Positions 6,357-63,206 of a stretch of 64,000 nucleotides of DNA are shown in pieces. The stretch spans positions 281,512 through 345,511 of the forward strand of contig OZ246414.1 of assembly GCA_965231125.1 (NCBI GenBank), in the 5' to 3' direction. Source of the stretch: an uncultured Gammaproteobacteria bacterium. GTDB taxonomy: Bacteria; Patescibacteriota; Microgenomatia; Woykebacterales; RBG-16-39-9b. Position 1 is the first letter of the stretch; the number at the start of each line of letters is the position of its first letter. The notes beneath the pieces are model-generated. The model worked only from the letters and a program-made list of their open reading frames with translations, did not search any database and was not told the DNA's origin. The translations under genes were made by a program, and so were the position numbers.

Positions 6357-6539
6357 TCAAGATGGGAGGCCGGTGAGCCAGTTGAGGAAAGGTAAGCGGT
6401 GCTTTTCTATTGATAAATCTTCCAAGGCAATATTTTTCTTAGCCGTAAATTGAGAAATCATCTCAAAAGTGGCGGTTAGTTCCCTATTTAATACGTGGCC
6501 GTTATGAAAGTCAATAAAGTCAGCTACGTTTTCGATCAT
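6357..6539 (-). CDS. Small hypothetical protein, paralog of the gene at 8501-8692
   Basis: About 60 aa with a conserved C-terminus (AKKNIALEDLSIEKHRLPFLNWLTG). Differences from the paralog are mostly synonymous, which argues for real coding sequence. Confidence 0.5.
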   Translation of the reverse strand: MIENVADFIDFHNGHVLNRELTATFEMISQFTAKKNIALEDLSIEKHRLPFLNWLTGLPS

Positions 6540-6624
6540 TACCTTAAGTTTACTCCCATAATTCAAATAAGCAAGAGGCAGGAAAAATCTCAAGCGATAT
6601 TTTGTAACTTGCCAAGTGGTGGAT

Positions 6625-6706: not shown

Positions 6707-8491
6707 ATGAATAATATCAGAAACGTTGCTATCATTGCTCACGTCGATCACGGTAAGACCACTCTTGTCGATGCCTTGCTGCGACAAAGTAATACCAAGC
6801 TCCACAAAGATTTGGAGGGCACGAACCTAATAATGGATTCCAACGATCTTGAAAAAGAGCGCGGCATTACTATCTTTTCCAAAAACGCTTCGGTTGTTTG
6901 GAAGGGTACAAAGATAAATATCATTGATACCCCTGGGCATGCCGATTTTGGAGGAGAGGTCGAACGGGTCTTGAAAATGGCTGATGGGTGTCTACTGCTG
7001 GTTGACGCCAAGGAAGGCCCCATGCCGCAAACTCGTTTTGTCCTCAAAAGGGCTCTCGAACTCGGTCACAAAGTTGTGGTCGTTATAAACAAAGTGGACA
7101 AACCCGATGCTAGAGTCGAGTGGGTGGTGAATAAAACTTTTGATCTTTTCGTTGAACTTGGGGCCAGCGATGAGGCAGCTTTTTTCCCAATTGTTTACAC
7201 TTCAGCCAAAAAGGGATTGGCGGGAGTTGGGCCGGATTTAAATCAGATGAAAGATATCGCCCCAGTTTTTGAGGCAATCATCGAACACATCCCCGCCCCG
7301 ACCGGAGAAGCAAGTAAACCGTTGCAAATGTTGGTCACTACAATTCTCGGGGACAATTTTAAAGGACGGATCGCGACTTGTCGAATTTACAACGGTTCGA
7401 TAAAGTCCGGGCAGGAGGTTACTCATATAAACCGCGTCGGCGAAATGAAAAAAGTAAAGCTAACTGCCCTCATTGGCTTTTCCGGGTTGGATAAAATTGA
7501 TATTCTCGAGGCGGAAGCTGGAGACATTGTGGCGGTTGCCGGAATCGAAAATGTGAATATTGGTGAGACCATTGCTGATCCTAACGAAGCTGTCGCCTTA
7601 CCTCTTTTGGACATTGAAGAACCGACGATCAACATGACTTTTTCGGTAAACAGCTCTCCTTTTGCCGGAAAAGAAGGGCAGTTCAAGACTTCTCGGCAAA
7701 TTCGAGAGCGACTTTTCAAAGAACTCGAAACCGATATGGCTTTGAAGGTGGCAGATGGTGCAGACGGAGATTGGATTGTTTCTGGTCGAGGAGAACTACA
7801 TCTGGCTATTTTGATCGAAAGAATGCGTCGCGAAGGTTACGAATTTCAAGTGGCCCGGCCGCAAGTAATCACGAAAAAGATTAACGGCAGGACACTAGAG
7901 CCTTACGAAAAGGTTTTCATTGAGGCTCCGGAAGGCTATTCCGGGGTGATAATGCAAAAAATGGGAGAGCGCGGGGCTTTGTTGCAAGATATGAATACCG
8001 AAAATGGTGTTGTACAAGTAGAATTTATCATCCCAACCCGAAAACTATTTGGCTACCGTAGCGGGTTTCTTACCGACACCAAAGGGGAAGGTATTATCAA
8101 CACAGTGTTCCATGAATTTAGAGAAGATGCCGGTGGAATTTTTGAGAGAGGTCCTGGATCACTAGTTGCTTTTGAAGATGGTCCGACAACTTTGTATGGG
8201 TTAACCAATGCTCAAGAGCGTGGAACGCTCTTCCTAGGACCCGCTACCCCCGTCTACAAAGGCCAAGTTGTGGGACAGAATTCCCGGGGCGGAAATATTA
8301 AAGTGAATGTTTGCAAAGAAAAGCAACAGACCAACATGCGTTCTAGAGGCGAGGGAGTTGCAGAGCATTTCAATGCTCCCCAACCGATGGGTTTAGAGGA
8401 CGCCCTTGAATATATTGATGGTAGCGAGTTAGTAGAAATAACCCCGGAGAATATCCGAATCCGCAAAATCGATCTAAATTCTAAATATTAA
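6707..8491 (+). CDS. typA: Translational GTPase TypA/BipA
   Basis: Begins NIRNVAIIAHVDHGKTTLVDALL and carries the G1-G5 motifs, followed by EF-G-like domains. Length 594 aa. Confidence 0.95.
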   Translation: MNNIRNVAIIAHVDHGKTTLVDALLRQSNTKLHKDLEGTNLIMDSNDLEKERGITIFSKNASVVWKGTKINIIDTPGHADFGGEVERVLKMADGCLLLVDAKEGPMPQTRFVLKRALELGHKVVVVINKVDKPDARVEWVVNKTFDLFVELGASDEAAFFPIVYTSAKKGLAGVGPDLNQMKDIAPVFEAIIEHIPAPTGEASKPLQMLVTTILGDNFKGRIATCRIYNGSIKSGQEVTHINRVGEMKKVKLTALIGFSGLDKIDILEAEAGDIVAVAGIENVNIGETIADPNEAVALPLLDIEEPTINMTFSVNSSPFAGKEGQFKTSRQIRERLFKELETDMALKVADGADGDWIVSGRGELHLAILIERMRREGYEFQVARPQVITKKINGRTLEPYEKVFIEAPEGYSGVIMQKMGERGALLQDMNTENGVVQVEFIIPTRKLFGYRSGFLTDTKGEGIINTVFHEFREDAGGIFERGPGSLVAFEDGPTTLYGLTNAQERGTLFLGPATPVYKGQVVGQNSRGGNIKVNVCKEKQQTNMRSRGEGVAEHFNAPQPMGLEDALEYIDGSELVEITPENIRIRKIDLNSKY

Positions 8492-8500
8492 ACTAGCAGT

Positions 8501-8692
8501 TTAGATTTTTGAGCTGGAGAGTCCGGTGAGCCAGTTGATAAAAGGTAAGCGATGCTTCTCAATCGATAGATCTTCCAAAGCAATATTTTTCTTGGCTATA
8601 AAGCTAGAAATAGTTTCAAAACTTGCGTTTAATTCCGTATCTAATACGTGCTCGTTGTGGTAGGAGATAAATTCTTTTATATTTTGAGTCAC
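8501..8692 (-). CDS. Small hypothetical protein, paralog of the gene at 6357-6539
   Basis: 63 aa, ending in IEKHRLPFINWLTG, convergent with typA. About 75-80% nucleotide identity to the other copy. Confidence 0.5.
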   Translation of the reverse strand: MTQNIKEFISYHNEHVLDTELNASFETISSFIAKKNIALEDLSIEKHRLPFINWLTGLSSSKI

Positions 8693-8736
8693 GCCTTAAG
8701 TGTACTCCCCAAATCCAAATAAGCAATAGGCAGTTA

Positions 8737-8786
8737 AAACCCTCGCTTTTTGGATTCAAATCTGGTACAATCGTTTCCCTAAAATC
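8737..8786 (+). repeat. Conserved upstream module (AAACCnCGCTTTT..TCAA.T...CTAAAATC), copy 1
   Basis: Shares its core with elements at 10116-10193 and 10702-10782, and partly with 9596-9623. Lies about 40 nt upstream of the gene at 8827. Confidence 0.45.
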
Positions 8787-8826
8787 TAAAGTCCTTGCTT
8801 GTTCGTCATTCCTAAAGGAGGCAGAT

Positions 8827-9357
8827 GTGAAGGTTACTTTCATTTCGAGGGAGCCTGGGGTAAGGGCAAAGCTTCTCTATGGTGTTCGCCAAAGCGCCAT
8901 TTACACGGGTGTCGCTAACTTAACTGCCGGTAGGACTGCAGCCATTGTAATCTACTATCCGGATTCGGTTCTTCCAAAGATAGAGCAAATTCTTGGTTAC
9001 ATGGATGGGCAGAATCGTAATCCTGAAGTTCACATCGAGAAAATCGGGGAGAAAGCAAACGTCTATGTTATCTTCCGGGTGAACGTGGACCCAAACTTCA
9101 TCTTTGATCTTCTCGTCGATGAAGAAGTGGAGGGTATAGATTTTAAACAGGTAGGAAGGGAGAGTGTAATAGAGCTGCTTATGGTGGCGCAGGCTTCTAT
9201 CTCGAAAGGTAGCCTGGCGAATTTCTCGCAAGTGTTCGATCGAGACCAAAAGTTTGACGTTATCGTCGGCAGACCGATGGGGTATAGAAACGCCGAGCCT
9301 CGTTGGCAAAAGACGCTGGCTGTTTACGAACAGAAGGCGCCGAAACTTCCGGTTTGA
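8827..9357 (+). CDS. Hypothetical protein
   Basis: GTG start preceded by AAAGGAGG. 176 aa, no recognised domain. Confidence 0.5.
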   Translation: MKVTFISREPGVRAKLLYGVRQSAIYTGVANLTAGRTAAIVIYYPDSVLPKIEQILGYMDGQNRNPEVHIEKIGEKANVYVIFRVNVDPNFIFDLLVDEEVEGIDFKQVGRESVIELLMVAQASISKGSLANFSQVFDRDQKFDVIVGRPMGYRNAEPRWQKTLAVYEQKAPKLPV

Positions 9358-9363
9358 AGGATT

Positions 9364-9400
9364 GGAGAGGGCAAAAAACCAAACTTGCCCTCTCCTTTGC
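9364..9400 (+). terminator. Rho-independent terminator
   Basis: Hairpin GGAGAGGGCAA..TTGCCCTCTCC followed by TTTGC. Confidence 0.45.
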
Positions 9401-9655
9401 ATAAGGTGTATAATTAACTAATGAAACCATTTTGGCCGCAAGAGGTAAGGAGAAACTCTAATGCATTTAACATCCGAAATGCAGGTAAGAAGTTTTTCCA
9501 AAAAGGCCACCGCAAAGCAAATAAGAAAAAGTGATTTCTTGCATTTCTTCCCCGAAACTTCAGAAAAGTAAGAAAAAATAAATAGGAAACGCCACACCCC
9601 TCGCTTTTTGTTTTCAAATCCCAAGACTTTTGCTGAGTTTATTTATAATGAGAGA

Positions 9656-9700
9656 AAAGGAAAAAAGCGGTGGGGGTGCTTGAAGAACAGGCACCCCCTT
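9656..9700 (-). terminator. Rho-independent terminator for the minus-strand zinc-ribbon gene
   Basis: On the minus strand, a GGGGGTGCC..GCACCCCC hairpin is followed by a T-run (ACCGCTTTTTTCC). Confidence 0.5.
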
Positions 9701-10061
9701 TAGACAGGTGTAGGTGGTGGATGAGGATCGTCCTTTGGGTCGGCCTGCCAGATTCTTGCTAGGATAAAAGGCAGACCGCTTTCATAGTCTGGAGGGATCT
9801 GGCCACTGGTACGAAGTAGCGCTTCCTCAGCTATCGATCTATCCCCACAGACAGCCTCCTTTGCTCTCTTCGCGTCAGAGTGTTCAGCACTTACGTTTAG
9901 AGTGTAGCCTTGGCTGCACGTACTACATAGTGCTTGAACAGACCAGACCTTCTCACTTATCTGTTTTAGATCTATCCGGTCGTATCGGAACAGCGTCTTA
10001 CATGCTGGGCAAGCGAGAGGGATACCGACACAGATTTGCCTGATTATATCCTGCTCGTCCA
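9700..10061 (-). CDS. Cys-rich zinc-ribbon protein, hypothetical
   Basis: Start MDEQD after AAAGGAG. CPAC and CSTC motif pairs. Locally higher GC than the flanks. The 10206 start in the ORF track looks like an over-extension. Confidence 0.45.
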
Positions 10062-10115
10062 TTTGTCTCCTTTCTCTCTGACGCGGACGGATTATTTCTA
10101 TTATAGTATAGTCAA

Positions 10116-10193
10116 GCAAGATAAACCCGCTTTTAGACTCAATTTGTATAGTCCACGACTGTGGTTGCAGCATTCGTGAGAATGCTCTAAAAT
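10116..10193 (+). repeat. Conserved upstream module with hairpin AGCATTC-GTGA-GAATGCT, copy 2
   Basis: Paralog of 10702-10782. The stem covaries between copies (TC/GA versus CT/AG). Sits just upstream of the gene at 10213. Confidence 0.5.
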
Positions 10194-10212
10194 CAGCTAG
10201 AAACAAACCTCA

Positions 10213-10680
10213 ATGACAATTATCAAACCATTCCTAATTATTATTTCATTAATAATTGTTTTATTTATTCTCTTTGCGTTTTACCGAACTTGGAAGACGC
10301 AGCATGGAGAGAGTCAAAAACTATTTCTTTCCGGGAAACTCCCAAATCCAAAACTAGACGGATTTTATAAAGGCTCAATCACTGGCCAAACCAATCTTTC
10401 TTGGAACGGAAAAGTTTTTAATGCGCAAGCGAGTAGCGGGATTAACAAAATAAACGATTCTGAAAAGTACAAATTCAAAACTTTCACCGGAAAAGGTTTG
10501 CAGGACAAAAATCTCGAGGTTTTAAAATTAGAATACAATATTCCCGGAAACCCTTTCTGGCTCCGAACCGTGCTAGATGAAATAGTGGAGACCAAACCTG
10601 GAGTTTATTTAGGCAAAACCCACGTTCGCATTATTCCTGGTTTTCCTTTTACACTTGGTTATTTTAATTTGGAAAAATAG
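10213..10680 (+). CDS. Hypothetical membrane-anchored protein
   Basis: N-terminal transmembrane helix (PFLIIISLIIVLFILFAF). 155 aa. Confidence 0.5.
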   Translation: MTIIKPFLIIISLIIVLFILFAFYRTWKTQHGESQKLFLSGKLPNPKLDGFYKGSITGQTNLSWNGKVFNAQASSGINKINDSEKYKFKTFTGKGLQDKNLEVLKLEYNIPGNPFWLRTVLDEIVETKPGVYLGKTHVRIIPGFPFTLGYFNLEK

Positions 10681-10701
10681 TTGAGCAAGTTGATATAGGT
10701 A

Positions 10702-10782
10702 AGCAAGATAAACCTCGCTTTTCAGCCTCAATTTTTGTAATCCAGGTAAGTGGTTGCAGCATCTGCCAAGATGCTATAAAAT
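10702..10782 (+). repeat. Conserved upstream module with hairpin AGCATCT-GCCA-AGATGCT, copy 3
   Basis: Same arrangement as 10116-10193, in front of the MazG-like gene. Confidence 0.5.
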
Positions 10783-10805
10783 CCATCCAACCTAGTTTTT
10801 TAGTT

Positions 10806-11156
10806 ATGAATACCAAAGAGCTGCAGAAGAAAATAGTAAAATTTCGTGATGCTAGAGATTGGAAGCAATTCCACAACCCCAAAGATCTTTCTATTTCATT
10901 ACTTCTTGAAGCAGCAGAACTACTAGAACATTTTCAATGGAAAAGCCAACAAGAAATGGACGATCTACCAAAGACAAAAGAGTTTGGGGATGTAAAAGAA
11001 GAAGTCGCGGACATTTATTACTGGGTTTTGCTGGTTGCCAATGATTTAAATATCGATCTAGAAAAAGAGTTTTTGAAAAAAATGAAGCAAAATGAGAAGA
11101 AATACCCAATAGAGAAGGCCAGAGGAAGTCATAAAAAATATACAGAACTAACATGA
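10806..11156 (+). CDS. MazG-like nucleotide pyrophosphohydrolase
   Basis: Pattern FRDARDW.QFH.PKDL..SL..EAAELLE.FQW plus the EEVADIYYWVLLVAN helix pair. Confidence 0.7.
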   Translation: MNTKELQKKIVKFRDARDWKQFHNPKDLSISLLLEAAELLEHFQWKSQQEMDDLPKTKEFGDVKEEVADIYYWVLLVANDLNIDLEKEFLKKMKQNEKKYPIEKARGSHKKYTELT

Positions 11157-12271
11157 ACAAAACAAGAAAAATCTTCTTTGTTGTTGCAAGTGGTGGTCAG
11201 GAGACTGACAGACATTACTACGACACAATTGAGAAGAAACGAACTGTAGAAGAAGCAGAAAAATTTTTGGCTCCAGAAGAGATCAATATTCTGAAAAACA
11301 AATATCATAGTGGTCCGTTCGCAGTTTGGGGTGCAGTTCCAGGAACTGGAAATTCAAGAACTTGGGATTCTATGGAACCTGGGGATTATGTTCTTATCTA
11401 TAAGTCTGGGTCAATTATTTTTGCTGCCGAAGTAGCTCTCAAAACTAGAAACCCAAGAATGGCTGAGTATCTATGGAGCAAAGATAGTAATGGCCAAACT
11501 TGGGAATATATGTATTTTCTGGTTAATACTGAGAAGGTTAACGTTGGTATGGCAAAGTTGAATCCCCTGCTCGGTTACAGCGAGAATTTTTTCCCAAGGG
11601 GATTTTCTGCAATTGACCAAAATAAAGTTGATGACTTGTTAAATAAGTACGGAGATACCTTGTCTGTACTTAAAAAGATCGAACAAGGGAGAGAATTAGA
11701 AAAGATAGACGAACATAAGAAAGTAGAAGAGATAGTATTAGATGAAAAAGTAGAAAGAGCTCCAACAGAGCATGATGAGATGCAGTGGCGATTAATTAGA
11801 CTTGGTAAAAAGTCCCATGTTGATGTTTGGGTTCCACAAAACGATCAAGGTAAGGTATATGATAACCATGTTTTTAGAAACGAGGTTCTAGAGGACTTTC
11901 AAACTACTTTGGATGTACCGACATATATCAAAAACATTGACGTTGTTTGGAAATACGGGTTCTCAATAAAATCTGCTTTTGAGATCGAACATTCCACCTC
12001 AGTTTATTCAGGTATTTTAAGACTTTCTGATCTTCGAGCACTGACACCTAACTCCATTTATCCAATGTTTATCGTCGCTGATAGAGATAGAAAAAATAAA
12101 GTTTTTTCTGAGCTCCAAAGACCTACTTTTGACAACCCTTATCTAAACCTCAAAGAGGTTATCAGCTTTCTATCTTATGATAAAGTTCGAGAGCTTGACG
12201 AGGATTCTAAAGATCAGGATGCAAACGTTTCATTAGACTTCTTAGCGAGACAAGCTGAAAAGGTTAACTAA
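11153..12271 (+). CDS. Hypothetical two-domain protein (PUA/EVE-like N-terminus, possible PD-(D/E)xK-like C-terminus)
   Basis: Overlaps the MazG stop by 4 nt. The C-terminal segment IDVVWKYGF...EIEHS has a nuclease-like look. Weak assignment. Confidence 0.45.
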   Translation: MNKTRKIFFVVASGGQETDRHYYDTIEKKRTVEEAEKFLAPEEINILKNKYHSGPFAVWGAVPGTGNSRTWDSMEPGDYVLIYKSGSIIFAAEVALKTRNPRMAEYLWSKDSNGQTWEYMYFLVNTEKVNVGMAKLNPLLGYSENFFPRGFSAIDQNKVDDLLNKYGDTLSVLKKIEQGRELEKIDEHKKVEEIVLDEKVERAPTEHDEMQWRLIRLGKKSHVDVWVPQNDQGKVYDNHVFRNEVLEDFQTTLDVPTYIKNIDVVWKYGFSIKSAFEIEHSTSVYSGILRLSDLRALTPNSIYPMFIVADRDRKNKVFSELQRPTFDNPYLNLKEVISFLSYDKVRELDEDSKDQDANVSLDFLARQAEKVN

Positions 12272-12279
12272 ACCCTTGT

Positions 12280-12312
12280 TAGCAGACCACCTATCTTTCT
12301 GCTAGTTTTTCA
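12280..12312 (+). terminator. Rho-independent terminator
   Basis: Hairpin TAGCAGA..TCTGCTA followed by GTTTTTC. Confidence 0.5.
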
Positions 12313-12358
12313 GGTATAATTTTATTACTGCCCTGAACAAGGGCTTTTATTTTTAAAA

Positions 12359-12805
12359 ATGGCTAAGTACAGCAAATTAAAAGTAATTTGTGATGCAAGC
12401 TGCAAAATCCCGAATGCAAATGTAAAGGGGAGGCCAAATTTTGGAAAGGCAGCAGGTGCATACCTATTTTTAGATGAGGTAGATAACCGTATTGAGAGTG
12501 GAGGTTTCTACCTCGGAGAAATGAGCCCCTATGAGGCTGAGTATCAAACTCTTTTAAAAACTCTCGATTTAGTAAGTGGTATTTGTAGAGGCGTGGTTGA
12601 AGTTTTTATGGACGCCGAATTTGTTATACGGCATATGAACGGAACTTACGGATTAAAATCAGATGTTGTCAAACCCATTTTTGACAAAATAAAATCAATA
12701 GAAACAGCTAGATTTAAAAAAGTTGACTATTATCATCATTCTCGTGATACGGAGTACGGAAAAGTTGTAGATAATCTGGCCAAACAAGAAGTTAATAAAT
12801 ACTAG
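12359..12805 (+). CDS. RNase H-like domain protein
   Basis: Catalytic pattern D(ICDAS)..E(EAEYQ)..D(FMDAEF)..H/D(HHSRDTEYGKVVDNLAKQ) in the order expected for RNase HI. Confidence 0.5.
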   Translation: MAKYSKLKVICDASCKIPNANVKGRPNFGKAAGAYLFLDEVDNRIESGGFYLGEMSPYEAEYQTLLKTLDLVSGICRGVVEVFMDAEFVIRHMNGTYGLKSDVVKPIFDKIKSIETARFKKVDYYHHSRDTEYGKVVDNLAKQEVNKY

Positions 12806-13196: not shown

Positions 13197-13358
13197 ATGG
13201 CCGATCCTGTAAGATGTCCTTATTGCAATAGCAGAGATTTATCCACGGTACCTGCCCCTTTTGGAGAGAGTGTACAAACAAGCTCCATCACCTACAAATG
13301 CCAAATATGTCACCGCAGCTTTAGTAAATCCTCTTCAGAAAAAAGTAAAGACGAATAA
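13197..13358 (+). CDS. Stand-alone IS1595/IS1-like transposase zinc-ribbon mini-protein (53 aa), paralog 1
   Basis: RCPYCNS...YKCQICHRSFS fits the pattern CPxCxS..(n)..YxCxxCxxxFS. About 80% nucleotide identity to 14649-14810. Confidence 0.5.
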   Translation: MADPVRCPYCNSRDLSTVPAPFGESVQTSSITYKCQICHRSFSKSSSEKSKDE

Positions 13359-13364
13359 AAATTT

Positions 13365-13404: not shown

Positions 13405-13797
13405 ATGAAAACTACTAGAATATTGATCTTGGAAGATGATTTAGAAACTCTTTCAGTCTTGCTCAGAAAGCTACATGAACTTGAAGAAGAGACAGCGTCG
13501 GTTATTTCTGTTGTGACTCTTTCTGAATACACTCAAGTAGAAGAATTTATCAATAACAAGAAGGACTTGGGCTTTGATATTGTTCTCCTCGATCGGGATT
13601 GCAAAGCTGGAGGATCCTTCCACACTCTAGAAATTGAAAAGTATGGTCCAGAGAAAATCATTTCAATTTCCTCGATCCCAGACTACAACCGGCAGGCGCA
13701 AGGACGCGGTGTCAAAAGAATTGTTTGGAAGGACTATCAAAACCTTGAAGATTTCTCTCTTAAAGTAATCGAAAACATTAAACAAATACTTAGCTAG
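13405..13797 (+). CDS. Stand-alone receiver (REC/CheY-like) domain protein
   Basis: ILILEDD...DIVLLDRD layout. Confidence 0.5.
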   Translation: MKTTRILILEDDLETLSVLLRKLHELEEETASVISVVTLSEYTQVEEFINNKKDLGFDIVLLDRDCKAGGSFHTLEIEKYGPEKIISISSIPDYNRQAQGRGVKRIVWKDYQNLEDFSLKVIENIKQILS

Positions 13798-13819
13798 TTT
13801 TTCTTGCTATAATTAAAGC

Positions 13820-14149
13820 ATGATATTGATAATAAGTGAAAAAGCTAGTAAAGAACAACTTGAACAAATGGCTCAGGACTTTGATGGTTTTATAAAAGTC
13901 GTTGTCGATATTGAAAAAGGAATATTGGCTGGAGGTGGGGAAAGGCACGTAGATGCAGAACAACTAATGCTCCAGGAAGGTTCAAAGCAAAGCGATCTTT
14001 GGGGTGGTGGTTTAGATTTGGAAACGAAAGATAGAGACTACAATTCTGTAATTAACCTTCGACCCAATCAAGACAACTCAAGTCGTGATATACTATCAAA
14101 AGAAATTAGAAAGCAGTTTGACGAAATTGTGAAGAAGCTACTACTCTAA
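13820..14149 (+). CDS. Hypothetical protein
   Basis: ORF of 109 aa, no domain recognised. Confidence 0.4.
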   Translation: MILIISEKASKEQLEQMAQDFDGFIKVVVDIEKGILAGGGERHVDAEQLMLQEGSKQSDLWGGGLDLETKDRDYNSVINLRPNQDNSSRDILSKEIRKQFDEIVKKLLL

Positions 14150-14157
14150 GAAACTTT

Positions 14158-14463
14158 ATGAACAAAAAAGAAAAAATTTTGGATATAGCGATGAATTTAA
14201 ATAGAGTTGGAAACTGGTTGTATGACGACCCGCAATCTAAAGGAAAAAGAATCAATAGTTTTTTGAGTAATACCAATTTGATTTTGGGTTCCTTACCCTC
14301 AAGCTCCTTTTCAACACCTTTCCGTACTACCTACGAGAAGTTTTTGGGTGACTATGGTCAGCTGAACAAACAGATTGAATCAGCCGATATTGACAACCAG
14401 TACTGGGGAGAGAAAGCAATGACTTGGGGAACTGTACTTACTCACCGCTCAAAATTAATTTGA
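14158..14463 (+). CDS. Hypothetical protein
   Basis: ORF of 101 aa. Confidence 0.35.
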   Translation: MNKKEKILDIAMNLNRVGNWLYDDPQSKGKRINSFLSNTNLILGSLPSSSFSTPFRTTYEKFLGDYGQLNKQIESADIDNQYWGEKAMTWGTVLTHRSKLI

Positions 14464-14648: not shown

Positions 14649-14810
14649 ATGCCAGACGAAATAAGATGCCCTTATTGCAATAGCAAAGATTTAGCCACTG
14701 TACCTACCCCTTTTGGAGAGAGCGTGCAAACAAACTCCACTACCTACAAATGCCAAATATGCCACCGCACTTTCAGCAAATCCTCCTCCGAAGAAAATAA
14801 GGAAGAATAG
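14649..14810 (+). CDS. Stand-alone IS1595/IS1-like transposase zinc-ribbon mini-protein (53 aa), paralog 2
   Basis: MPDEIRCPYCNSKDLATVPTPFGESVQTNSTTYKCQICHRTFS. The ORF-track start at 14613 is an upstream extension. Confidence 0.5.
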   Translation: MPDEIRCPYCNSKDLATVPTPFGESVQTNSTTYKCQICHRTFSKSSSEENKEE

Positions 14811-14852
14811 ATAATTGACATACGATAATACATATGTTAGTATGTACCTATT

Positions 14853-30095: not shown

Positions 30096-30941
30096 GTGGT
30101 TATACGGACACCCCAAACTCTAATAGATCTGAGAGTCTTGGACCTGGTAGGCCCACCAATGGCAGGGCTTCCTGAAGAGGTGCTTAAGCATCATCTCAGG
30201 AATCTCGAGCCGATTCATTGGGCGATCGGAGAAGTCGCCAGAAGTATGAGACTGGGTGAAGTCGATCGCCAGCAACTCAGAATGGTCCTCCAAGGGATCA
30301 GACTGCCGGCTCCGACGATAGTTATCCCCGAAGCACAGCTTCCCGCAAACGACCCGCTCCGGCAAGTGTTCCCGACCGGCGGTTGGTACATGAAGTGCCC
30401 GCCCGGAATCGATCTGGTTCTGCTCCACCAGAGCGTCGGCCAGTTCGGGGCAGATGTGCGTTTCTACCGGCAGAACGATTCGGATCCGTGGTTTCTTAAG
30501 AGCTACGGAGAATGGTCGCCAGAGGGTAAGGGAAGTGAAGTGCAGCGGCTCACCACCCACTCGTGCCACCTCTTCATCCCAGACCCTTCGCAGTGGCTGT
30601 TCCCAGACAGCAAGGGCCTGCGTCGTGACGATTGCCTGCAGATGCAGCGCGAGTTCGAGAAGAAGTTGCCAGACGGTCGGACTTGTCCGGAACCGTCACT
30701 GGAGACTTTGGCTCTCGCGGCTTTCGAGTACCATCGGCAGCATCCGAGCCAGTGGCCACTTCGTGGCCCTAACTACGCCCGTTGCGCCAATCGCTTCGGC
30801 CGGGGTGGCTGGCTCGACGGTGGTGGCTTCGATCCGCGCGGTTTCGGCGTCAGCGGCTGGGGCGGGCTCGGCGGTGGCAATCTCGGTGCCTTGCGCTGGG
30901 TAGTGTGGTACGACGAAGAGGAGGCAGAGCAGGCCGCCTAG
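30096..30941 (+). CDS. DGR target (variable) protein; the C-terminal region carries the VR
   Basis: GTG start. Markedly GC-rich compared with the flanks. Its last ~40 codons (…GWLDGGGFDPRGFGVSGWGGLGGGNLGALRWVVW…) align to the TR with adenine-specific differences. Confidence 0.7.
   Translation: MVIRTPQTLIDLRVLDLVGPPMAGLPEEVLKHHLRNLEPIHWAIGEVARSMRLGEVDRQQLRMVLQGIRLPAPTIVIPEAQLPANDPLRQVFPTGGWYMKCPPGIDLVLLHQSVGQFGADVRFYRQNDSDPWFLKSYGEWSPEGKGSEVQRLTTHSCHLFIPDPSQWLFPDSKGLRRDDCLQMQREFEKKLPDGRTCPEPSLETLALAAFEYHRQHPSQWPLRGPNYARCANRFGRGGWLDGGGFDPRGFGVSGWGGLGGGNLGALRWVVWYDEEEAEQAA
30791..30906 (+). repeat. DGR variable region (VR)
   Basis: 116 bp, gapless alignment to the TR at 31759-31874 with 22 mismatches, all at TR adenines. 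The 3' 29 bp (CAATCTCGGTGCCTTGCGCTGGGTAGTGT) is identical and GC-rich, resembling an initiation-of-mutagenic-homing (IMH) element. Confidence 0.85.
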
Positions 30942-31016
30942 CTCTCGGACCTGGAAAACTTGGACCTTCTGGAATCTTGGTCCTTGGTTCCTTCGCCCGC
31001 AGAAAAAGATTCCAAC

Positions 31017-31066
31017 CCGACCCCGTTTCTCAAACACGTTGCGAGAAACGGGGTCTTTCTTTTCTC
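31017..31066 (+). terminator. Strong bidirectional hairpin terminator
   Basis: 13-bp perfect stem GACCCCGTTTCTC / GAGAAACGGGGTC followed by TTTCTTTTCTCTC. It lies between the convergent target and GIY-YIG genes. Confidence 0.55.
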
Positions 31067-31069
31067 TCG

Positions 31070-31366
31070 TTATTCTGGCTTGTCCAGAATCTGTCCGTAC
31101 AAATCTTTGAAATTAGGATTAAACTTCTTTATCATCTTAATCTTATCTATTCGGTTCATGTCCTTAATTTGTTTCTCTCTGATGATTGCTTGGTTAATAT
31201 TGGTAAGAATTTCAAAGTAAACTAGTTTGTACAGGTTGTATTTTGCAGTGAAACCTTTTGCAACATGGTTTTTGTGTTGCCAAACACGTTTTACTAAATT
31301 ACTAGTTACACCTGTATAAAGTGTTGGTCTATCATTGGCCATTATGTAAATATAACCAGGGTTCAT
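31070..31366 (-). CDS. GIY-YIG nuclease family protein
   Basis: Begins GYIYIM...LYTGVTSNLVKRVWQHK. A short free-standing URI domain sitting inside the DGR cassette. Confidence 0.75.
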   Translation of the reverse strand: MNPGYIYIMANDRPTLYTGVTSNLVKRVWQHKNHVAKGFTAKYNLYKLVYFEILTNINQAIIREKQIKDMNRIDKIKMIKKFNPNFKDLYGQILDKPE

Positions 31367-31512
31367 CCGGCTAATTATAAAAGATTCTGGATGCGTTCTG
31401 TGAGACAGAACTTACCAGAATGACTTGCGATGAAAAAACGTCACTCTGGCTTGACCAGAGTCTTTTTGAGAAAGATTCTCCGAGTCAGTAACACTTTTCC
31501 ATAATGACAAAG

Positions 31513-31521
31513 TGGTATAAT
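31513..31521 (+). promoter_or_regulatory. Candidate extended -10 promoter (TGgTATAAT) that could drive the TR transcript
   Basis: About 240 nt upstream of the TR on the TR strand, with no clear -35. Confidence 0.25.
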
Positions 31522-31758
31522 TCTCGTGGAGACAAGTTTAAGTATCAGCGGTCAAGGCTTCTGGTCGCTTTTCTCTCTACAATCTCCTTTAGTCCGGAAC
31601 TCTAAACGACTAAGGTCATTAGAGGTGTGATAAAGATTGCTAGACACTCCTTGCCTTTTCCTAGATCCCCCTACGCTAAAAGCTGCGGTGGGACGATAAA
31701 ATTCAATCCCTAGAAGTTTTCAAAGGATGGTGGGTGCTAGAAGGGAAAGGGCAACATT

Positions 31759-31874
31759 TCGCTACGGCCAGAGTAACTGGCTCAACGGTGGTAACTTCGA
31801 TCCGAACGGTTTCAACGTCAACAACTGGGACGAGAACGGCAATGACAATCTCGGTGCCTTGCGCTGGGTAGTGT
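31759..31874 (+). repeat. DGR template region (TR)
   Basis: Adenine-rich (28 A in 116 bp, many as AAC codons). 22 of those A positions are substituted in the VR. The ORF-track entry at 31727-31927 is an artefact of the TR. Confidence 0.85.
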
Positions 31875-31891
31875 CTAGAGGAAAAAGACGT

Positions 31892-32275
31892 CTAGGTGGT
31901 TTTGGCTTGTTTGATCCAGCCACCTAGCATCTTACCGATCTCTATTAAGAGATTCTCAAAAGAGAGATATTTTTGTTGATTGATTGCTCTAGTCTCAAAG
32001 GAGAGGCGCAATAGTATTTTTAAAACGTCCAGTTTGGCTGAGGCTCTTTCCAGGTAAACAAGTTTTTCGTTTTTACTCTTATAGCCTGCAAGTAGAACCA
32101 ATTCGAGAATTTCTAGGTTTAGGTCTGCACATTTTTGACCTACAGTGTAGCGATCTTGCCGAGGAAAATGTTTGAGAGCTTCGTGAAGGTTTTTATAAAA
32201 ATCGTAGGTCTTCTGAAATATGGGAATATCTAAATTACTTGAGTGGGGGGGGTCGAGTTGAAAACCTTTACTCAT
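31892..32275 (-). CDS. avd: DGR accessory variability determinant (Avd-like four-helix-bundle protein)
   Basis: 127 aa with the helix-pair pattern typical of four-helix-bundle proteins. Lies between the TR and the RT, on the opposite strand. Confidence 0.7.
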   Translation of the reverse strand: MSKGFQLDPPHSSNLDIPIFQKTYDFYKNLHEALKHFPRQDRYTVGQKCADLNLEILELVLLAGYKSKNEKLVYLERASAKLDVLKILLRLSFETRAINQQKYLSFENLLIEIGKMLGGWIKQAKTT

Positions 32276-33382
32276 CTTAGCTTTCTTAAGCGCCGAGCGC
32301 GTAGCGATCTATACAAGAAGGTTATCTCACTTCCCAATCTTTTTCAAGCTTGGGATGAGTTTAAGAAGGGGAAAAGAAAAAAGATTGATGTTGGAGAATT
32401 TGAGAGACATCTGGAAGACAATATTTTTGAACTGCGTCGGGAGTTGTTGACTAAAACCTACCGACACTCCTCTTACACCGGTTTTTACATTACCGATCCC
32501 AAAGTCCGCCATATCCACAAAGCGATTGTTCGCGACCGAATTGTTCACCACGCCCTATTCAAAGTTCTCAATCCCATCTTTGAACCTACTTTCATTTCTG
32601 ATTCTTTCTCTTGCCGAAAGGGATATGGAACTCATAAAGGATTTAAGAAGTTGGTTGTCTATGCCCGAAAAGTTAGCAAGAATTACACCCAAGATGGTTG
32701 GGCTTTAAAATGCGATGTAAAAAAGTTTTTTGACAGTGTTAATCATAAAGTTTTGCTAGAAATAATTAAAAGAAAGATTAAAGAAAAAGATCTGCTCTGG
32801 TTACTGGAAGAAATAGTTGGAAGTTTCTGCACTTGTCATTCTGAGGTAAAACCGAAGAATCTGAGATCCTTCGCTAATGCTCAGGATGACGATTATTGTA
32901 AAGGTATTCCCATTGGGAATCTGACTAGCCAACTCTTCGCCAACGTTTATCTTAATGAGCTAGACCAGTTTGTCAAAAACGAATTAAAGGCTAGATACTA
33001 TATCCGCTACGCTGATGATCTCCTTATCTTAATCGAAAACACAAAGGGTTTAGTCCAATATACTGGTATATTGGACAAGTTTCTTGAGGACAGGTTAAAA
33101 TTGGAACTGCATCCAAACAAAATTTCCTTGAGGAAACTGCCTTGGGGAGTCGATTTTGTTGGTTATATCGCTTTACCACATTATCAAGTTTTGAGAACCA
33201 AGACTAAAAGAAGAATTTATCGAAAGATTCGAGAAAGGATTTTTAGTTACAATGCAAAAAACATTAACTACGAATCCTTAAACCAATCCATCCAGTCTTA
33301 CTTGGGGATTTTGAAGCACGCTAATACACATAAGTTAGAACAGAATTTAAGAAATCAAATATATTTTTGGTTAACGGCTTAA
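32243..33382 (+). CDS. DGR reverse transcriptase
   Basis: RT motifs including the DGR-specific IGNLTSQLFANVYL (SQ in place of QG) and the YADD box (YIRYADDLLIL). About 375 aa with no maturase or endonuclease domain. The start is GTG 32243 or TTG 32258. Confidence 0.85.
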   Translation: MGGVELKTFTHLSFLKRRARSDLYKKVISLPNLFQAWDEFKKGKRKKIDVGEFERHLEDNIFELRRELLTKTYRHSSYTGFYITDPKVRHIHKAIVRDRIVHHALFKVLNPIFEPTFISDSFSCRKGYGTHKGFKKLVVYARKVSKNYTQDGWALKCDVKKFFDSVNHKVLLEIIKRKIKEKDLLWLLEEIVGSFCTCHSEVKPKNLRSFANAQDDDYCKGIPIGNLTSQLFANVYLNELDQFVKNELKARYYIRYADDLLILIENTKGLVQYTGILDKFLEDRLKLELHPNKISLRKLPWGVDFVGYIALPHYQVLRTKTKRRIYRKIRERIFSYNAKNINYESLNQSIQSYLGILKHANTHKLEQNLRNQIYFWLTA

Positions 33383-62595: not shown

Positions 62596-62742
62596 AGGTC
62601 AAAGGAATACGGGTGAAGCACGGTGTAAATCCGTGGGAGTGCCGCTACTGTAAACCCAGAACCCCGCCTTTGAATCCCTTCGAGCAAAGGAGGTGAAAAA
62701 TCACTTAGGATTTAAACCAGCCAACTTTGCGGCTGGTTTTTT
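62596..62742 (+). ncRNA. Cobalamin riboswitch-like leader (assigned from memory, not verified) with a terminator expression platform
   Basis: GGTGAAGCACGGTGTAAATCCGTG...GCCGCTACTGTAAACC resembles the cobalamin-riboswitch core as I recall it. It is followed by the hairpin CCAGCC..GGCTGG plus T6 (62717-62742), directly upstream of the DUF4430 gene. Confidence 0.5.
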
Positions 62743-62753
62743 GGTGGTAAAAT

Positions 62754-63206
62754 ATGAAAAATCAACAAAGAAATTGGATAATTGCGGCAGTTATAGTTAT
62801 TTTGGCCCTAGTTGGTGGTTATTTTGTATTAACCAATTTAGGGAACAATAAGACACCTTCAACCCCAACTTCTCAAGAGCAAGTAAAGGGAGTTCAAGTT
62901 GAAGTAACCATCGACTATTCTGGCGAACAAGGTAAATCCCTAGAAACAAGGACGGTGAATGTTACCGAAGGCAAGACTGCTTGGGATGCACTGGTTGTGG
63001 ATGTAGGCAAGGAAAATATTGACTATAAAGATTATGGTAGCCTTGGTGTACTTGTGTTGGGGATTAATGGTGTAAAACCAACTGGTAACAACTCTTGGGA
63101 ATTCCAGGTAAACGGGAAGGCTGCCCCAGTGGGAGTTAGCAGTTACAAAGTGAAATCTAGTGACAAAATTGGATTTGTGATTACGCAAGCCAGTAAAGGT
63201 CAGTAA
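62754..63206 (+). CDS. DUF4430 domain protein (putative cobalamin-binding, lipid/membrane-anchored)
   Basis: N-terminal transmembrane or signal segment. TAWDAL...SWEFQVNGK pattern. Confidence 0.55.
   Translation: MKNQQRNWIIAAVIVILALVGGYFVLTNLGNNKTPSTPTSQEQVKGVQVEVTIDYSGEQGKSLETRTVNVTEGKTAWDALVVDVGKENIDYKDYGSLGVLVLGINGVKPTGNNSWEFQVNGKAAPVGVSSYKVKSSDKIGFVITQASKGQ

What the first reader, a model, noticed from the sequence alone, without database searches (positions are those of the whole stretch)
8737..10782. Shared upstream module with a compensatory-mutation hairpin in front of three different genes
Upstream of the genes starting at 8827, 10213 and 10806 lies a common element: AAACCnCGCTTTT..G..TCAA.T.TGTA.A.TC … CTAAAATC, about 25 nt before the start. 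In the two best-conserved copies the central stem differs by paired changes that keep base-pairing (AGCATTC-GTGA-GAATGCT versus AGCATCT-GCCA-AGATGCT). That points to a selected RNA structure or a palindromic protein-binding site, in effect a small regulon. A truncated copy of the 5' half occurs at 9596-9623.
Basis: seen in the sequence. Interest (0 to 1): 0.55.

Follow-up and report, generated by a model that had tools for sequence, protein, structure and literature searches.

The report
Reused promoter modules in a CPR gene island
The shared upstream sequence is real, but it looks like a small family of copied promoter pieces sitting at the joints of a shuffled accessory-gene island in an uncultured Woykebacteria-like (CPR) bacterium, not a genome-wide regulon or a known RNA element.

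Summary
A 25-nt core, here called M (AACCCTCGCTTTTTAGCTTCAAATT), occurs four times in 64 kb, all between 8.7 and 10.8 kb and all on the + strand. Two copies (10107-10195, 10694-10783) share about 90 nt, including a 7-bp/4-nt-loop palindrome. The element splits into two modules. (1) M lies exactly 17 nt upstream of an extended -10 (TGnTAnnnT) in four of 13 copies found across three related genomes. It marks the 5' edge of gene modules that are shuffled between those genomes. It is 21/22 identical to the 3' coding end of a distant homologue of the 155-aa gene, so it looks like a gene-end relic carrying the upstream half of a promoter. (2) The palindrome fills the spacer of a second promoter-like site (TTGCAG-17-TAAAAT). 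A fifth copy sits before recJ in another relative, ending at an extended -10 placed 9 nt from the ATG. Base pairing is kept in 34 of 35 cells, with two compensatory pairs and two wobbles. This is suggestive but thin, and the position argues against an mRNA hairpin. Nothing matches Rfam, phages, plasmids, or more distant relatives. Best reading: propagated promoter modules, with a possible operator. Whether it acts as RNA or DNA, and whether M is a recombination site, remain open.

The parts
8738..8764 (+). M core, copy c1 (AACCCTCGCTTTTTGGATTCAAATCTG), the basic form
   Evidence: PWM 37.3 bits. nhmmer E 3e-6. 28/28 identical to the orthologous site L003 11777-11804, while the downstream CDS block is 64% identical.
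8763..8771 (+). Extended -10, TGGTACAAT. The hexamer starts exactly 17 nt after TCGCTT of M.
   Evidence: The same spacing is seen in L003-11778 (TGTTAATAT), L004-10474 (TGATAAGAT) and L008 (TGCTAAAAT). Binomial P about 3e-7, counting 3 of 9 independent sites.
8779..8786 (+). In c1 it falls in the predicted leader; it may instead be a second -10.
   Evidence: The L003 orthologue has CCCAAAATCT.
8827..9357 (+). Gene D, 176 aa. An ORFan with a strong Shine-Dalgarno site.
9596..9621 (+). M core, copy c4. It has no -10 at the canonical distance and no downstream + strand gene.
   Evidence: PWM 31.6 bits. Its 5' part is complementary to 9662-9678 (inverted repeat I12).
9676..9702 (-). Intrinsic terminator of gene C (GGGGGTGC...GCACCCCC followed by ACCGCTTTTTT on the - strand)
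9700..10062 (-). Gene C, a 120-aa zinc-ribbon protein. It is transcribed divergently from an M-bearing promoter here and in L003. It is a candidate regulator, but this is speculative.
   Evidence: Only 8 homologues in 1.8e9 representative proteins. The ribbon resembles the zinc ribbon of NrdR only weakly (Foldseek E 0.1).
10107..10195 (+). Long-form element c2: M core (10121-10146, with a 1-nt deletion), TAGTCC at the old -10 position, then the second promoter-like module
10165..10193 (+). TTGCAG (10165-10170), a 17-nt spacer, then TAAAAT (10188-10193). The palindrome AGCATTC-GTGA-GAATGCT (10169-10186) fills the spacer.
10213..10680 (+). Gene A, 155 aa, with an N-terminal transmembrane helix and no Shine-Dalgarno site. 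It is flanked by c2 and c3.
10694..10783 (+). Long-form element c3: M core (10710-10736), TAATCC at the old -10 position, then the second module
10754..10782 (+). TTGCAG (10754-10759), a 17-nt spacer, then TAAAAT (10777-10782). The palindrome AGCATCT-GCCA-AGATGCT (10758-10775) fills the spacer.
   Evidence: 33/36 identical to the orthologous L003 12481-12516.
10806..11156 (+). Gene E, MazG-like, 116 aa. It is the first gene of an operon with an NmeDI-like restriction endonuclease (11153-12271).
12270..12286 (+). Possible decayed M (AAACCCTTGTTAGCAGA) directly after the stop codon of the endonuclease gene. Weak; seen by eye only.
   Evidence: Not detected by the PWM or nhmmer.

Best explanation
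The module is a composite of two small promoter pieces that have been copied in front of unrelated genes. This has happened inside a variable accessory-gene island of a Woykebacteria-like (CPR) genome.

Piece 1 (M, about 25 nt) is the upstream half (-38 to -14) of an extended -10 promoter. It appears to descend from the last ~30 nt of a gene of the 155-aa family. In that ancestor, the promoter of the next gene overlapped the stop codon. When gene modules were reshuffled, each module kept this stretch, so M now marks the 5' edge of every module. In the basic form (c1) it is still the working promoter, and it is under strong sequence constraint, presumably because some factor reads it.

Piece 2 (GTGGTYGCAGCAT..ATGCT..AAAATC) is a second core promoter whose spacer is a 7-bp/3-4-nt palindrome. 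In c2 and c3 it sits downstream of a decayed M promoter and probably drives the Shine-Dalgarno-less genes at 10213 and 10806 from short leaders. The palindrome is most likely a regulatory DNA site (an operator) in the spacer.

Shown: the repeats, their spacing, their distribution, the synteny breakpoints and the pairing statistics. Inferred: promoter activity, transcription start sites (TSSs), the gene-end origin of M, and the existence of any binding factor.
For: - M is far above chance and clustered. Thirteen copies in three related genomes plus L008 are all co-oriented with the genes and lie within 2-3.5 kb hot spots.
- TGnTAnnnT starts exactly 17 nt after TCGCTT in c1, L003-11778, L004-10474 and L008, with P about 3e-7.
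- Extended -10 boxes lying 9-40 nt before start codons are the usual promoter type in this genome.
- c1 and its L003 orthologue are 28/28 identical across M, although the CDS block is 64% identical and the upstream flank cannot be aligned.
- Modules A-E occur in different orders in the window, L003 and L004. Homology blocks begin at the 5' edge of M. The 229-nt repeat that flanks typA ends at that same edge.
- M matches the 3' CDS of the A homologue in L060 at 21 of 22 positions with one 3-nt gap. The pseudo-stop TAA coincides with the -10 in L008 and L004.
- The second module is found without M, directly before recJ in L062. There it ends in TGCTAAAAT 9 nt from the ATG, the same place where the window's recJ has TGTTAGAAT.
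- In the long forms the hairpin module is better conserved between orthologues (33/36) than M is (about 24/30, by eye). This fits an active downstream promoter and a decaying upstream one.
- c2 and c3 meet the published criterion for putative mobile promoters: at least 40 of 50 nt identical upstream of non-homologous genes (PMC3488235).
Against: - There is no transcript data, so every TSS is inferred.
- TCGCTT is a poor -35, so what reads M is unknown.
- Several M copies lack a usable -10: c4, L003-13344, and the long forms with TAATCC or TAGTCC.
- The palindrome shows changes typical of RNA helices: C-G to U-A twice, and G.U and U.G wobbles that pair only on the + strand. Its loop also varies between 3 and 4 nt. 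A dimeric DNA-binding protein would tolerate that poorly.
- The link to the gene 3' end rests on one borderline nhmmer hit (E 0.36) that was interpreted after the fact.
- Only 64 kb of the genome, plus 20-kb loci from relatives, could be examined.
Confidence: 0.5

Rival explanations
1. The stem-loop acts as RNA. Transcription would start upstream of it, from the M-associated hexamer (TATAGT, TAGTCT or TAATCC) or further upstream. The hairpin would then be a 5'-proximal leader structure that stabilises the mRNA or controls translation of the Shine-Dalgarno-less genes, and CUAAAAUC would be a shared leader motif.
For: - 34 of 35 cells pair across five copies. Two pairs change on both sides through C-G to U-A.
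- Both wobbles (G.U in L004, U.G in L062) pair only on the sense strand.
- The loop varies in sequence and length (GTGA, GCCA, GCA, TTTA).
- A TA-hexamer lies 10-16 nt upstream of the stem in all five copies.
- CTAAAATC also occurs in the predicted leader of c1.
- RNAalifold adds a second, weakly covarying helix just upstream.
Against: - In L062 the 3' arm overlaps TGCTAAAAT, which lies 9 nt from the recJ ATG. The gene upstream of it is divergent, so no transcript is expected to cover the stem.
- The upstream hexamers TAATCC and TAGTCC lack the essential -7 T.
- Folding energies of the whole leaders are unremarkable (z -0.8 and -1.9).
- There is no Rfam match.
- The covariation reduces to about two events in five related sequences.
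Confidence: 0.2
2. M is the core of a site-specific recombination site (att-like or integron-like). It would derive from the 3' end of an A-family gene, and small gene modules would be inserted, excised and shuffled at it by a recombinase encoded elsewhere. The promoter features would be secondary.
For: - All 13 copies are direct repeats at module boundaries.
- Synteny breakpoints fall at the 5' edge of M.
- M directly follows the stop codon of gene A in L003 and L004, and gene A is flanked by copies in the window and in L004.
- There are tandem copies 90 nt apart in L003 (13344 and 13434), and copies without a -10.
- M resembles a gene 3' end, as attB sites often do.
- Compared with L003, the window looks as if gene A plus one copy of the element had been inserted into the resident element.
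Against: - No integrase or other recombinase lies within 10 kb in any locus.
- M has no dyad symmetry and no attC R''/R' boxes.
- The exact 17-nt spacing to an extended -10, and the 28/28 conservation in the D promoter, are not expected of an att core.
- Homologous recombination between any 25-nt repeat could give the same breakpoints.
- The near-identical contigs L001, L002 and the window show no presence/absence polymorphism.
Confidence: 0.15
3. There is no present function. The copies would be decaying leftovers of segmental duplications and allele replacements in a fast-rearranging island. The palindrome would be kept perfect by template-switch (quasi-palindrome) correction rather than by selection.
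For: - The island holds other gene-flanking direct repeats of 77-85% identity: 6360-6587 with 8512-8739, and 13210-13363 with 14662-14816.
- Several M copies look decayed.
- The family is tiny and confined to a narrow clade.
Against: - 28/28 identity of M, and 33/36 identity of the hairpin module, between orthologues whose coding sequences are 64-81% identical.
- The non-random spacing to TGnTAnnnT.
- The hairpin module is retained before a housekeeping gene (recJ) in another species.
Confidence: 0.15

Closest known systems
Putative mobile promoters / promoter propagation (Matus-Garcia et al. 2012, PMC3488235)
   Same: Homologous intergenic stretches of 50-100 nt, at least 80% identical, lie upstream of non-homologous genes whose upstream neighbours are also non-homologous. 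Families are small, mostly pairs. No transposase is involved.
   Different: This family is older and more diverged (78% identity overall). It is shared by orthologous sites in sister species. It is concentrated at the joints of one shuffled island. Its core appears to derive from the coding end of a gene.
Extended -10 (TGn) sigma-70 promoters, including promoters of leaderless or short-leader mRNAs
   Same: TGnTAnnnT lies 9-40 nt before start codons. The -35 element is dispensable. This is the general promoter pattern in this genome.
   Different: A 25-nt sequence-specific block occupies -38 to -14 and is more conserved than the -10 itself. Ordinary extended -10 promoters have no such requirement.
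Palindromic operators in promoter spacers (for example LexA, NrdR or toxin-antitoxin autoregulation sites)
   Same: An 18-bp dyad lies between the -35 and -10 positions, where a bound dimer would block RNA polymerase.
   Different: The inner stem positions covary, the half-site spacing changes (loop of 4 versus 3 nt), and no cognate regulator has been identified.
Integron attC sites and chromosomal cassette arrays
   Same: Co-oriented repeats separate small, mostly promoter-poor accessory genes (toxin-antitoxin, restriction-modification, MazG-like), and the order of these genes differs between relatives.
   Different: M is 25 nt and not palindromic. It lacks RYYYAAC/GTTRRRY. It travels with the downstream gene, not the upstream one. 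No intI gene is nearby.
5'-terminal stabilising stem-loops of bacterial mRNAs
   Same: A short, stable hairpin lies upstream of the coding region and shows pairing-preserving substitutions.
   Different: By promoter prediction the hairpin lies upstream of the TSS. No transcript evidence is available.

Membership tests
Putative mobile promoter (PMP, PMC3488235) | Alignment of more than 50 nt with at least 80% identity between regions upstream of two CDSs | tested here: met
   42/50 in the best 50-column stretch of c2 against c3. Overall 71/91, or 78%. Criterion taken.
Putative mobile promoter (PMP, PMC3488235) | The downstream CDSs and the upstream CDSs are non-homologous | tested here: met
   Downstream genes: a 155-aa membrane protein versus a MazG-like protein. 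Upstream genes: zinc-ribbon gene C versus gene A. The self-blast shows no CDS similarity.
Sigma-70 extended -10 promoter | TGnTAnnnT at a plausible distance from the start codon | tested here: met
   c1 has TGGTACAAT at 8763-8771, 64 nt from the GTG. Relatives carry the same feature at the same offset from M. c2 and c3 instead have TTGCAG-17-TAAAAT.
Sigma-70 extended -10 promoter | A transcription start about 7 nt downstream of the -10 | not testable with these tools
   No transcriptome data are available.
Integron attC / gene cassette | R'' (RYYYAAC) and R' (GTTRRRY) boxes flanking an imperfect palindrome of 55-141 nt | tested here: not met
   By inspection of the 13 aligned copies, these boxes are absent. 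M is 25 nt with only a GCT/AGC dyad.
Integron attC / gene cassette | An adjacent intI tyrosine recombinase and attI site | tested here: not met
   No recombinase domain appears among the genes called within 10 kb on either side in L002, L003 or L004. The rest of the genome was not visible.
Known RNA family (Rfam 15) | A covariance-model match at or near the gathering score | tested here: not met
   Nothing in 8400-11000 better than E 0.013, and that hit (mir-320) is spurious.
Structured cis-regulatory RNA (generic) | A helix supported by covariation beyond what phylogeny alone would give | tested here: inconclusive
   Seven pairs: two with changes on both sides, two wobbles, 97% of cells paired, and 6 of 500 shuffles as good. 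Only five related sequences, amounting to about two events.
Intrinsic terminator | A GC-rich hairpin followed by a U-tract | tested here: not met
   The stem is followed by CTAAAATC or ATAAAATCC on the + strand and by GCAACCAC on the - strand. The terminator scan reports no site there.
MITE or IS-derived repeat | Terminal inverted repeats, target-site duplication and multiple dispersed copies | tested here: not met
   No terminal inverted repeats. No dispersed copies in the window. No match in the phage or plasmid collections.
att site at a tRNA or tmRNA gene | Identity with the 3' end of a nearby tRNA or tmRNA gene | tested here: not met
   No tRNA or tmRNA gene in the window, L003, L004 or L008.

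The most novel reading that the evidence does not exclude
M would be the crossover core of an undescribed, integrase-in-trans cassette-shuffling system in CPR bacteria. Its recombination site would derive from a protein-gene 3' end and would also supply each incoming cassette with the upstream half of a promoter. The adjoining stem-loop would be a structured nucleic-acid signal (RNA or single-stranded DNA) rather than an operator.
Probability: 0.12. Interest if true: 0.75.

Novelty: new member of a known kind. Interest (0 to 1): 0.33.

Why it matters
Almost nothing is known experimentally about promoters and gene regulation in CPR/Patescibacteria. This locus offers three things:

- A compact, testable example of promoter reuse in a defence and accessory-gene island.
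- A sequence block at -38 to -14 that is conserved more strictly than the -10. This implies an unknown reader, such as a transcription factor or a sigma variant.
- A case where a promoter seems to have been carried along as a relic of the preceding gene's coding end.

If M proved to be a recombination site, it would point to a new way in which streamlined genomes exchange small gene modules. As it stands, it is a lineage-restricted, low-copy element of modest general interest.

Tried and rejected
Searches that found nothing relevant:
- Rfam found nothing, at gathering threshold on the whole window and at E-value threshold on 8400-11000.
- The core 18-mer scanned against 185,579 species genomes gave 36 hits, of which 34 were single matches in unrelated taxa and 2 were in Woykebacteria. 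A viral scan gave 3 apparently unrelated matches.
- The hairpin pattern scanned against metagenome contigs gave 13 hits, all unrelated by inspection. The source contig is not in that collection.
- The phage and plasmid collections gave no match.

Searches for more copies among relatives:
- Orthologues of the MazG-like gene at 78-88% identity (L061, L062/63, L064) lack both M and the palindrome upstream.
- A-gene homologues at 53-65% identity (L057, L058, L060, L065, L066) lack M in their flanks.
- Gene D has no detectable homologues beyond its own strain, so no extra promoter copies could be obtained.
- tblastn for pseudogene remains of gene A upstream of M copies gave only noise.

Ideas rejected after inspection:
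- tRNA-derived att site: there are no tRNA genes.
- attC: the boxes are absent.
- Intrinsic terminator: there is no U-tract.
- Sigma-54, IHF, C-box and Bacteroidetes-type promoter motifs: the spacing or the consensus is wrong.
- A promoter on the minus strand reading M: the -10 positions are inconsistent.
- A minus-strand RNA hairpin formed by AAGCAAG with CTCGCTT: AAGCAA is instead the TTGCTT -35 of divergent minus-strand promoters.

Candidate regulator:
- Gene C was modelled with pLDDT 82. Only its zinc ribbon resembles NrdR or the RNA polymerase I subunit, at E about 0.1, so it remains a guess.
- NCBIfam and PADLOC gave nothing useful for genes A, C and D.
Full report
**Context.** The window comes from an uncultured Patescibacteria (CPR) genome close to Candidatus Woykebacteria.
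- The protein encoded at 10213-10680 has its nearest named relative in a Woykebacteria MAG.
- Near-identical contigs exist in a JGI metagenome and a Logan assembly.
- The finding lies just downstream of typA (6707-8491). This is the start of a run of small accessory genes: an ORFan of 176 aa (D), a conserved small-ORF block (B), a zinc-ribbon gene on the minus strand (C), a 155-aa membrane protein (A), a MazG-like gene (E) fused in an operon to an NmeDI-like endonuclease, an RNase H-like gene, toxin-antitoxin pairs and others.
- GC content falls from 0.44 to 0.37 across this stretch.

- c2 (10107-10195) and c3 (10694-10783) are 78% identical over 91 columns, and 42/50 in the best stretch. They are found by nhmmer at E 1e-31 or better.
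- The 3' pattern TTGCAGCAT-N8-ATGCTNTAAAAT occurs exactly twice in 64 kb, against 0.01 expected.
- A weight matrix for the 25-nt core scores the window copies c1, c3 and c4 at 31-37 bits. Shuffled windows reach at most 14 bits, and no other site in the window reaches 12 bits.
- c1 shares only the core plus the 8-mer CTAAAATC. c2 carries a 1-nt deletion in the core.

**Two separable modules.** Aligning all copies from the window and from relatives shows that the element is a composite.

*Module 1* is the core M, with consensus AACCCTCGCTTTTTAGCTTCAAATT.
- In c1, in its L003 orthologue, in L004-10474 and in L008, the hexamer of an extended -10 (TGGTACAAT, TGTTAATAT, TGATAAGAT, TGCTAAAAT) begins exactly 17 nt after TCGCTT.
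- The chance of TGnTAnnnT at a fixed offset is 0.0014. Three independent cases out of nine give P about 3e-7.
- Extended -10 boxes 9-40 nt upstream of start codons are the ordinary promoter type in this genome. Many genes look leaderless or nearly so.
- M therefore occupies -38 to -14 of such a promoter.
- Between the window and L003, the D promoter is 28/28 identical across M. The D coding block is 64% identical and the sequence upstream of M cannot be aligned.

*Module 2*, present in c2 and c3, is GTGGTTGCAGCAT..ATGCT.TAAAATC.
- It reads as TTGCAG, a 17-nt spacer and TAAAAT, with the 7-bp/4-nt-loop palindrome filling the spacer.
- In these long forms the old -10 position after M holds TAATCC or TAGTCC, which lack the critical -7 T.
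- The hairpin module is better conserved between orthologues (33/36) than M is (about 24/30, by eye).
- I read the long form as a decayed M promoter followed by an active second promoter. That second promoter would give the Shine-Dalgarno-less genes A and E short leaders.

**Distribution.**
- M was found 13 times: four in the window, five in L003, three in L004 (the same species as L019) and one in L008. All copies are co-oriented with the genes, and all lie within hot spots of 2-3.5 kb.
- The commonest 18-mer form of the core, scanned against one genome for each of 185,579 species, hit only two Woykebacteria. The other 34 hits were single matches in unrelated taxa.
- MazG-like orthologues at 78-88% identity, and A homologues at 53-65% identity, lack the element.
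- The hairpin pattern gave only unrelated matches in the metagenome collection, which does not hold the source contig.
- The phage and plasmid collections gave nothing.
- This is a low-copy family confined to a narrow clade, not a genome-wide regulon.

**Shuffling.** Blastn of the window against L003 and L004 shows that modules A-E are present but in different orders.
- Window: M-D-B-M-C-M-A-M-E.
- L003: A-M-(uncalled 65-aa ORF)-B-C-M-D-M-E.
- L004: M-A-M-x-M-TA, where x is a 105-aa gene.
- The homology blocks start at the 5' edge of M, and M travels with the downstream gene.
- Inside the window, the 229-nt direct repeat that brackets typA (6360-6587 and 8512-8739) ends exactly where M of c1 begins.
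- Relative to L003, the window looks as if gene A plus one copy of the long element had been inserted into the resident element upstream of E.

**Origin of M.** The only weak nhmmer hit outside the family (E 0.36) falls on the last 30 nt of the A homologue in L060.
- That sequence is TTTACTCTCGCTTTTTTCGAGCTTCAAAAATAA, encoding FTLAFFELQK and a stop codon.
- It matches M at 21 of 22 positions with one 3-nt gap.
- In L003 and L004, M begins directly after the stop codon of gene A.
- In L008 and L004, the pseudo-stop TAA of M coincides with the -10 hexamer.
- This suggests that M is a relic of an A-family gene end which contained the promoter of the next gene, and that it was carried along when modules moved.
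- The argument is post hoc and rests on one locus. No longer pseudogene remains were found.

**The stem.** The original four-sequence alignment (c2, c3, L003, L004) splits in two.
- A-type copies have U-A and C-G at pairs 6 and 7.
- E-type copies have C-G and U-A at those pairs.

A covariance model built from three copies found a fifth copy (27.8 bits, E 3e-4) in L062, directly upstream of recJ: GTGGTCGCAGCATCC-GCA-GGGTGCTAAAATC.

With five sequences:
- 34 of 35 cells pair.
- Two pairs change on both sides.
- There are two wobbles, G.U in L004 and U.G in L062. Both are acceptable only on the sense strand.
- 6 of 500 column shuffles do as well.
- Sliding the partner columns drops pairing to 34-50%.

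The changes are all transitions of the C-G to U-A type, and the loop varies in sequence and length. This is what an RNA helix looks like, but it amounts to about two independent events. As single strands the 36-nt segments fold at -6 kcal/mol (z -2.2 to -3.6). The L062 copy is not distinguishable from shuffles, and the full leaders are unremarkable.

The position argues against an mRNA hairpin.
- In L062 the 3' arm overlaps TGCTAAAAT, which lies 9 nt from the recJ ATG.
- The window's recJ has TGTTAGAAT 8 nt from its ATG, without any stem.
- The L062 upstream gene is divergent.
- The stem is therefore upstream of the most probable TSS.

**Mechanism and rivals.**
- My best reading (confidence about 0.5) is propagated promoter modules. 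M would be a sequence-specific upstream promoter block read by an unidentified factor. The palindrome would be a regulatory DNA site in the spacer of a second promoter.
- An RNA leader hairpin (0.2) is kept alive by the substitution pattern and by TA-hexamers 10-16 nt upstream of every stem.
- A recombination (att-like) role for M (0.15) is suggested by the following: co-orientation, breakpoints at M, copies without a -10, tandem copies, and the resemblance to a gene end. However, there is no recombinase within 10 kb, no dyad, and no attC boxes. Homologous exchange between any 25-nt repeat would give the same picture.
- Pure relic status (0.15) is hard to square with 28/28 and 33/36 conservation between orthologues.
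- Gene C is divergently transcribed from an M-bearing promoter in both the window and L003, and it is a rare zinc-ribbon protein. Its resemblance to the NrdR ribbon is not significant.

**Comparison with known systems.**
- The closest described phenomenon is promoter propagation, or putative mobile promoters (PMC3488235). c2 and c3 meet its operational criteria.
- It works like an ordinary extended -10 promoter with an added upstream block, and possibly like an operator-controlled promoter.
- It is not an attC site, a terminator, a MITE, or any Rfam family, by the tests listed in the membership table.

**Limits.**
- Only 64 kb of this genome and loci of 20 kb or less from relatives were visible.
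- All transcription starts are predicted.
- The covariation sample is five related sequences.

Noticed in passing
window 30096-33382: A diversity-generating retroelement. The variable repeat is at 30791-30906, at the 3' end of ORF 30096-30941. The template repeat is at 31759-31874 (81% identical). Every mismatch inside the repeat has A in the template copy and G, C or T in the variable copy. A bAvd-like ORF lies at 31892-32275 on the minus strand (Pfam E 6e-20), and a reverse transcriptase at 32243-33382.
   Followed up: partly
window 62599-62673: An AdoCbl-II (cobalamin) riboswitch on the + strand: 39.3 bits against a gathering score of 36.5. It lies upstream of ORF 62754-63206.
   Followed up: no
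window 6360-6587 and 8512-8739: typA is bracketed by 229-nt direct repeats (77% identical). Each holds a paralogous 60/63-aa minus-strand ORF with its own promoter (TTGCTT-16-TAAACT or TACACT). The second repeat ends exactly at the 5' edge of M copy c1.
   Followed up: partly
window 9388-9581 (= L003 10939-11132): Block B is 88% identical between the two species, more than any neighbouring protein gene. It carries a TATAAT promoter, a very basic 37-aa ORF (MKPFWPQEVRRNSNAFN...KKK, 35/37 identical) and long hairpins, including a 23-bp inverted repeat at 9476-9547. It is either a small protein gene or a small RNA.
   Followed up: partly
window 13197-13358 and about 14650-14816: Two paralogous 53-aa zinc-ribbon ORFs (85% nucleotide identity) flank the block of three genes at 13405-14463. 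The best family hint is an ECs_2282-type CxxC protein.
   Followed up: no
window 12270-12358: A degenerate M-like sequence (AAACCCTTGTTAGC) lies right after the endonuclease stop codon. It is followed by AGGTATAAT and then a terminator-like hairpin (GCCCTgaacaAGGGC + TTTTATTTTT) immediately before the ATG of the RNase H-like gene at 12359. This may be an attenuator.
   Followed up: no
L003 10467-10822: Downstream of an M copy there is an unrelated 6-bp palindrome with the same GCCA loop (TCTTGA-GCCA-TCAAGA), 1 nt before TAGAAT. It is followed by an uncalled 65-aa ORF with two transmembrane helices (10625-10822). The layout of a palindrome abutting a -10 therefore recurs with a different stem sequence.
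   Followed up: partly
window 11153-12271 vs L002 10941-12059: The NmeDI-like endonuclease gene is one 372-aa ORF in the window. In the near-identical JGI contig it is called as two genes (267 + 68 aa). This is either a strain-level frameshift or an assembly difference.
   Followed up: no
window 9700-10062 (-): Gene C belongs to a very rare family: 8 homologues among 1.8 billion representative proteins. All share four invariant cysteines. The AlphaFold model (pLDDT 82) shows a zinc ribbon plus a helical C-terminal half.
   Followed up: partly
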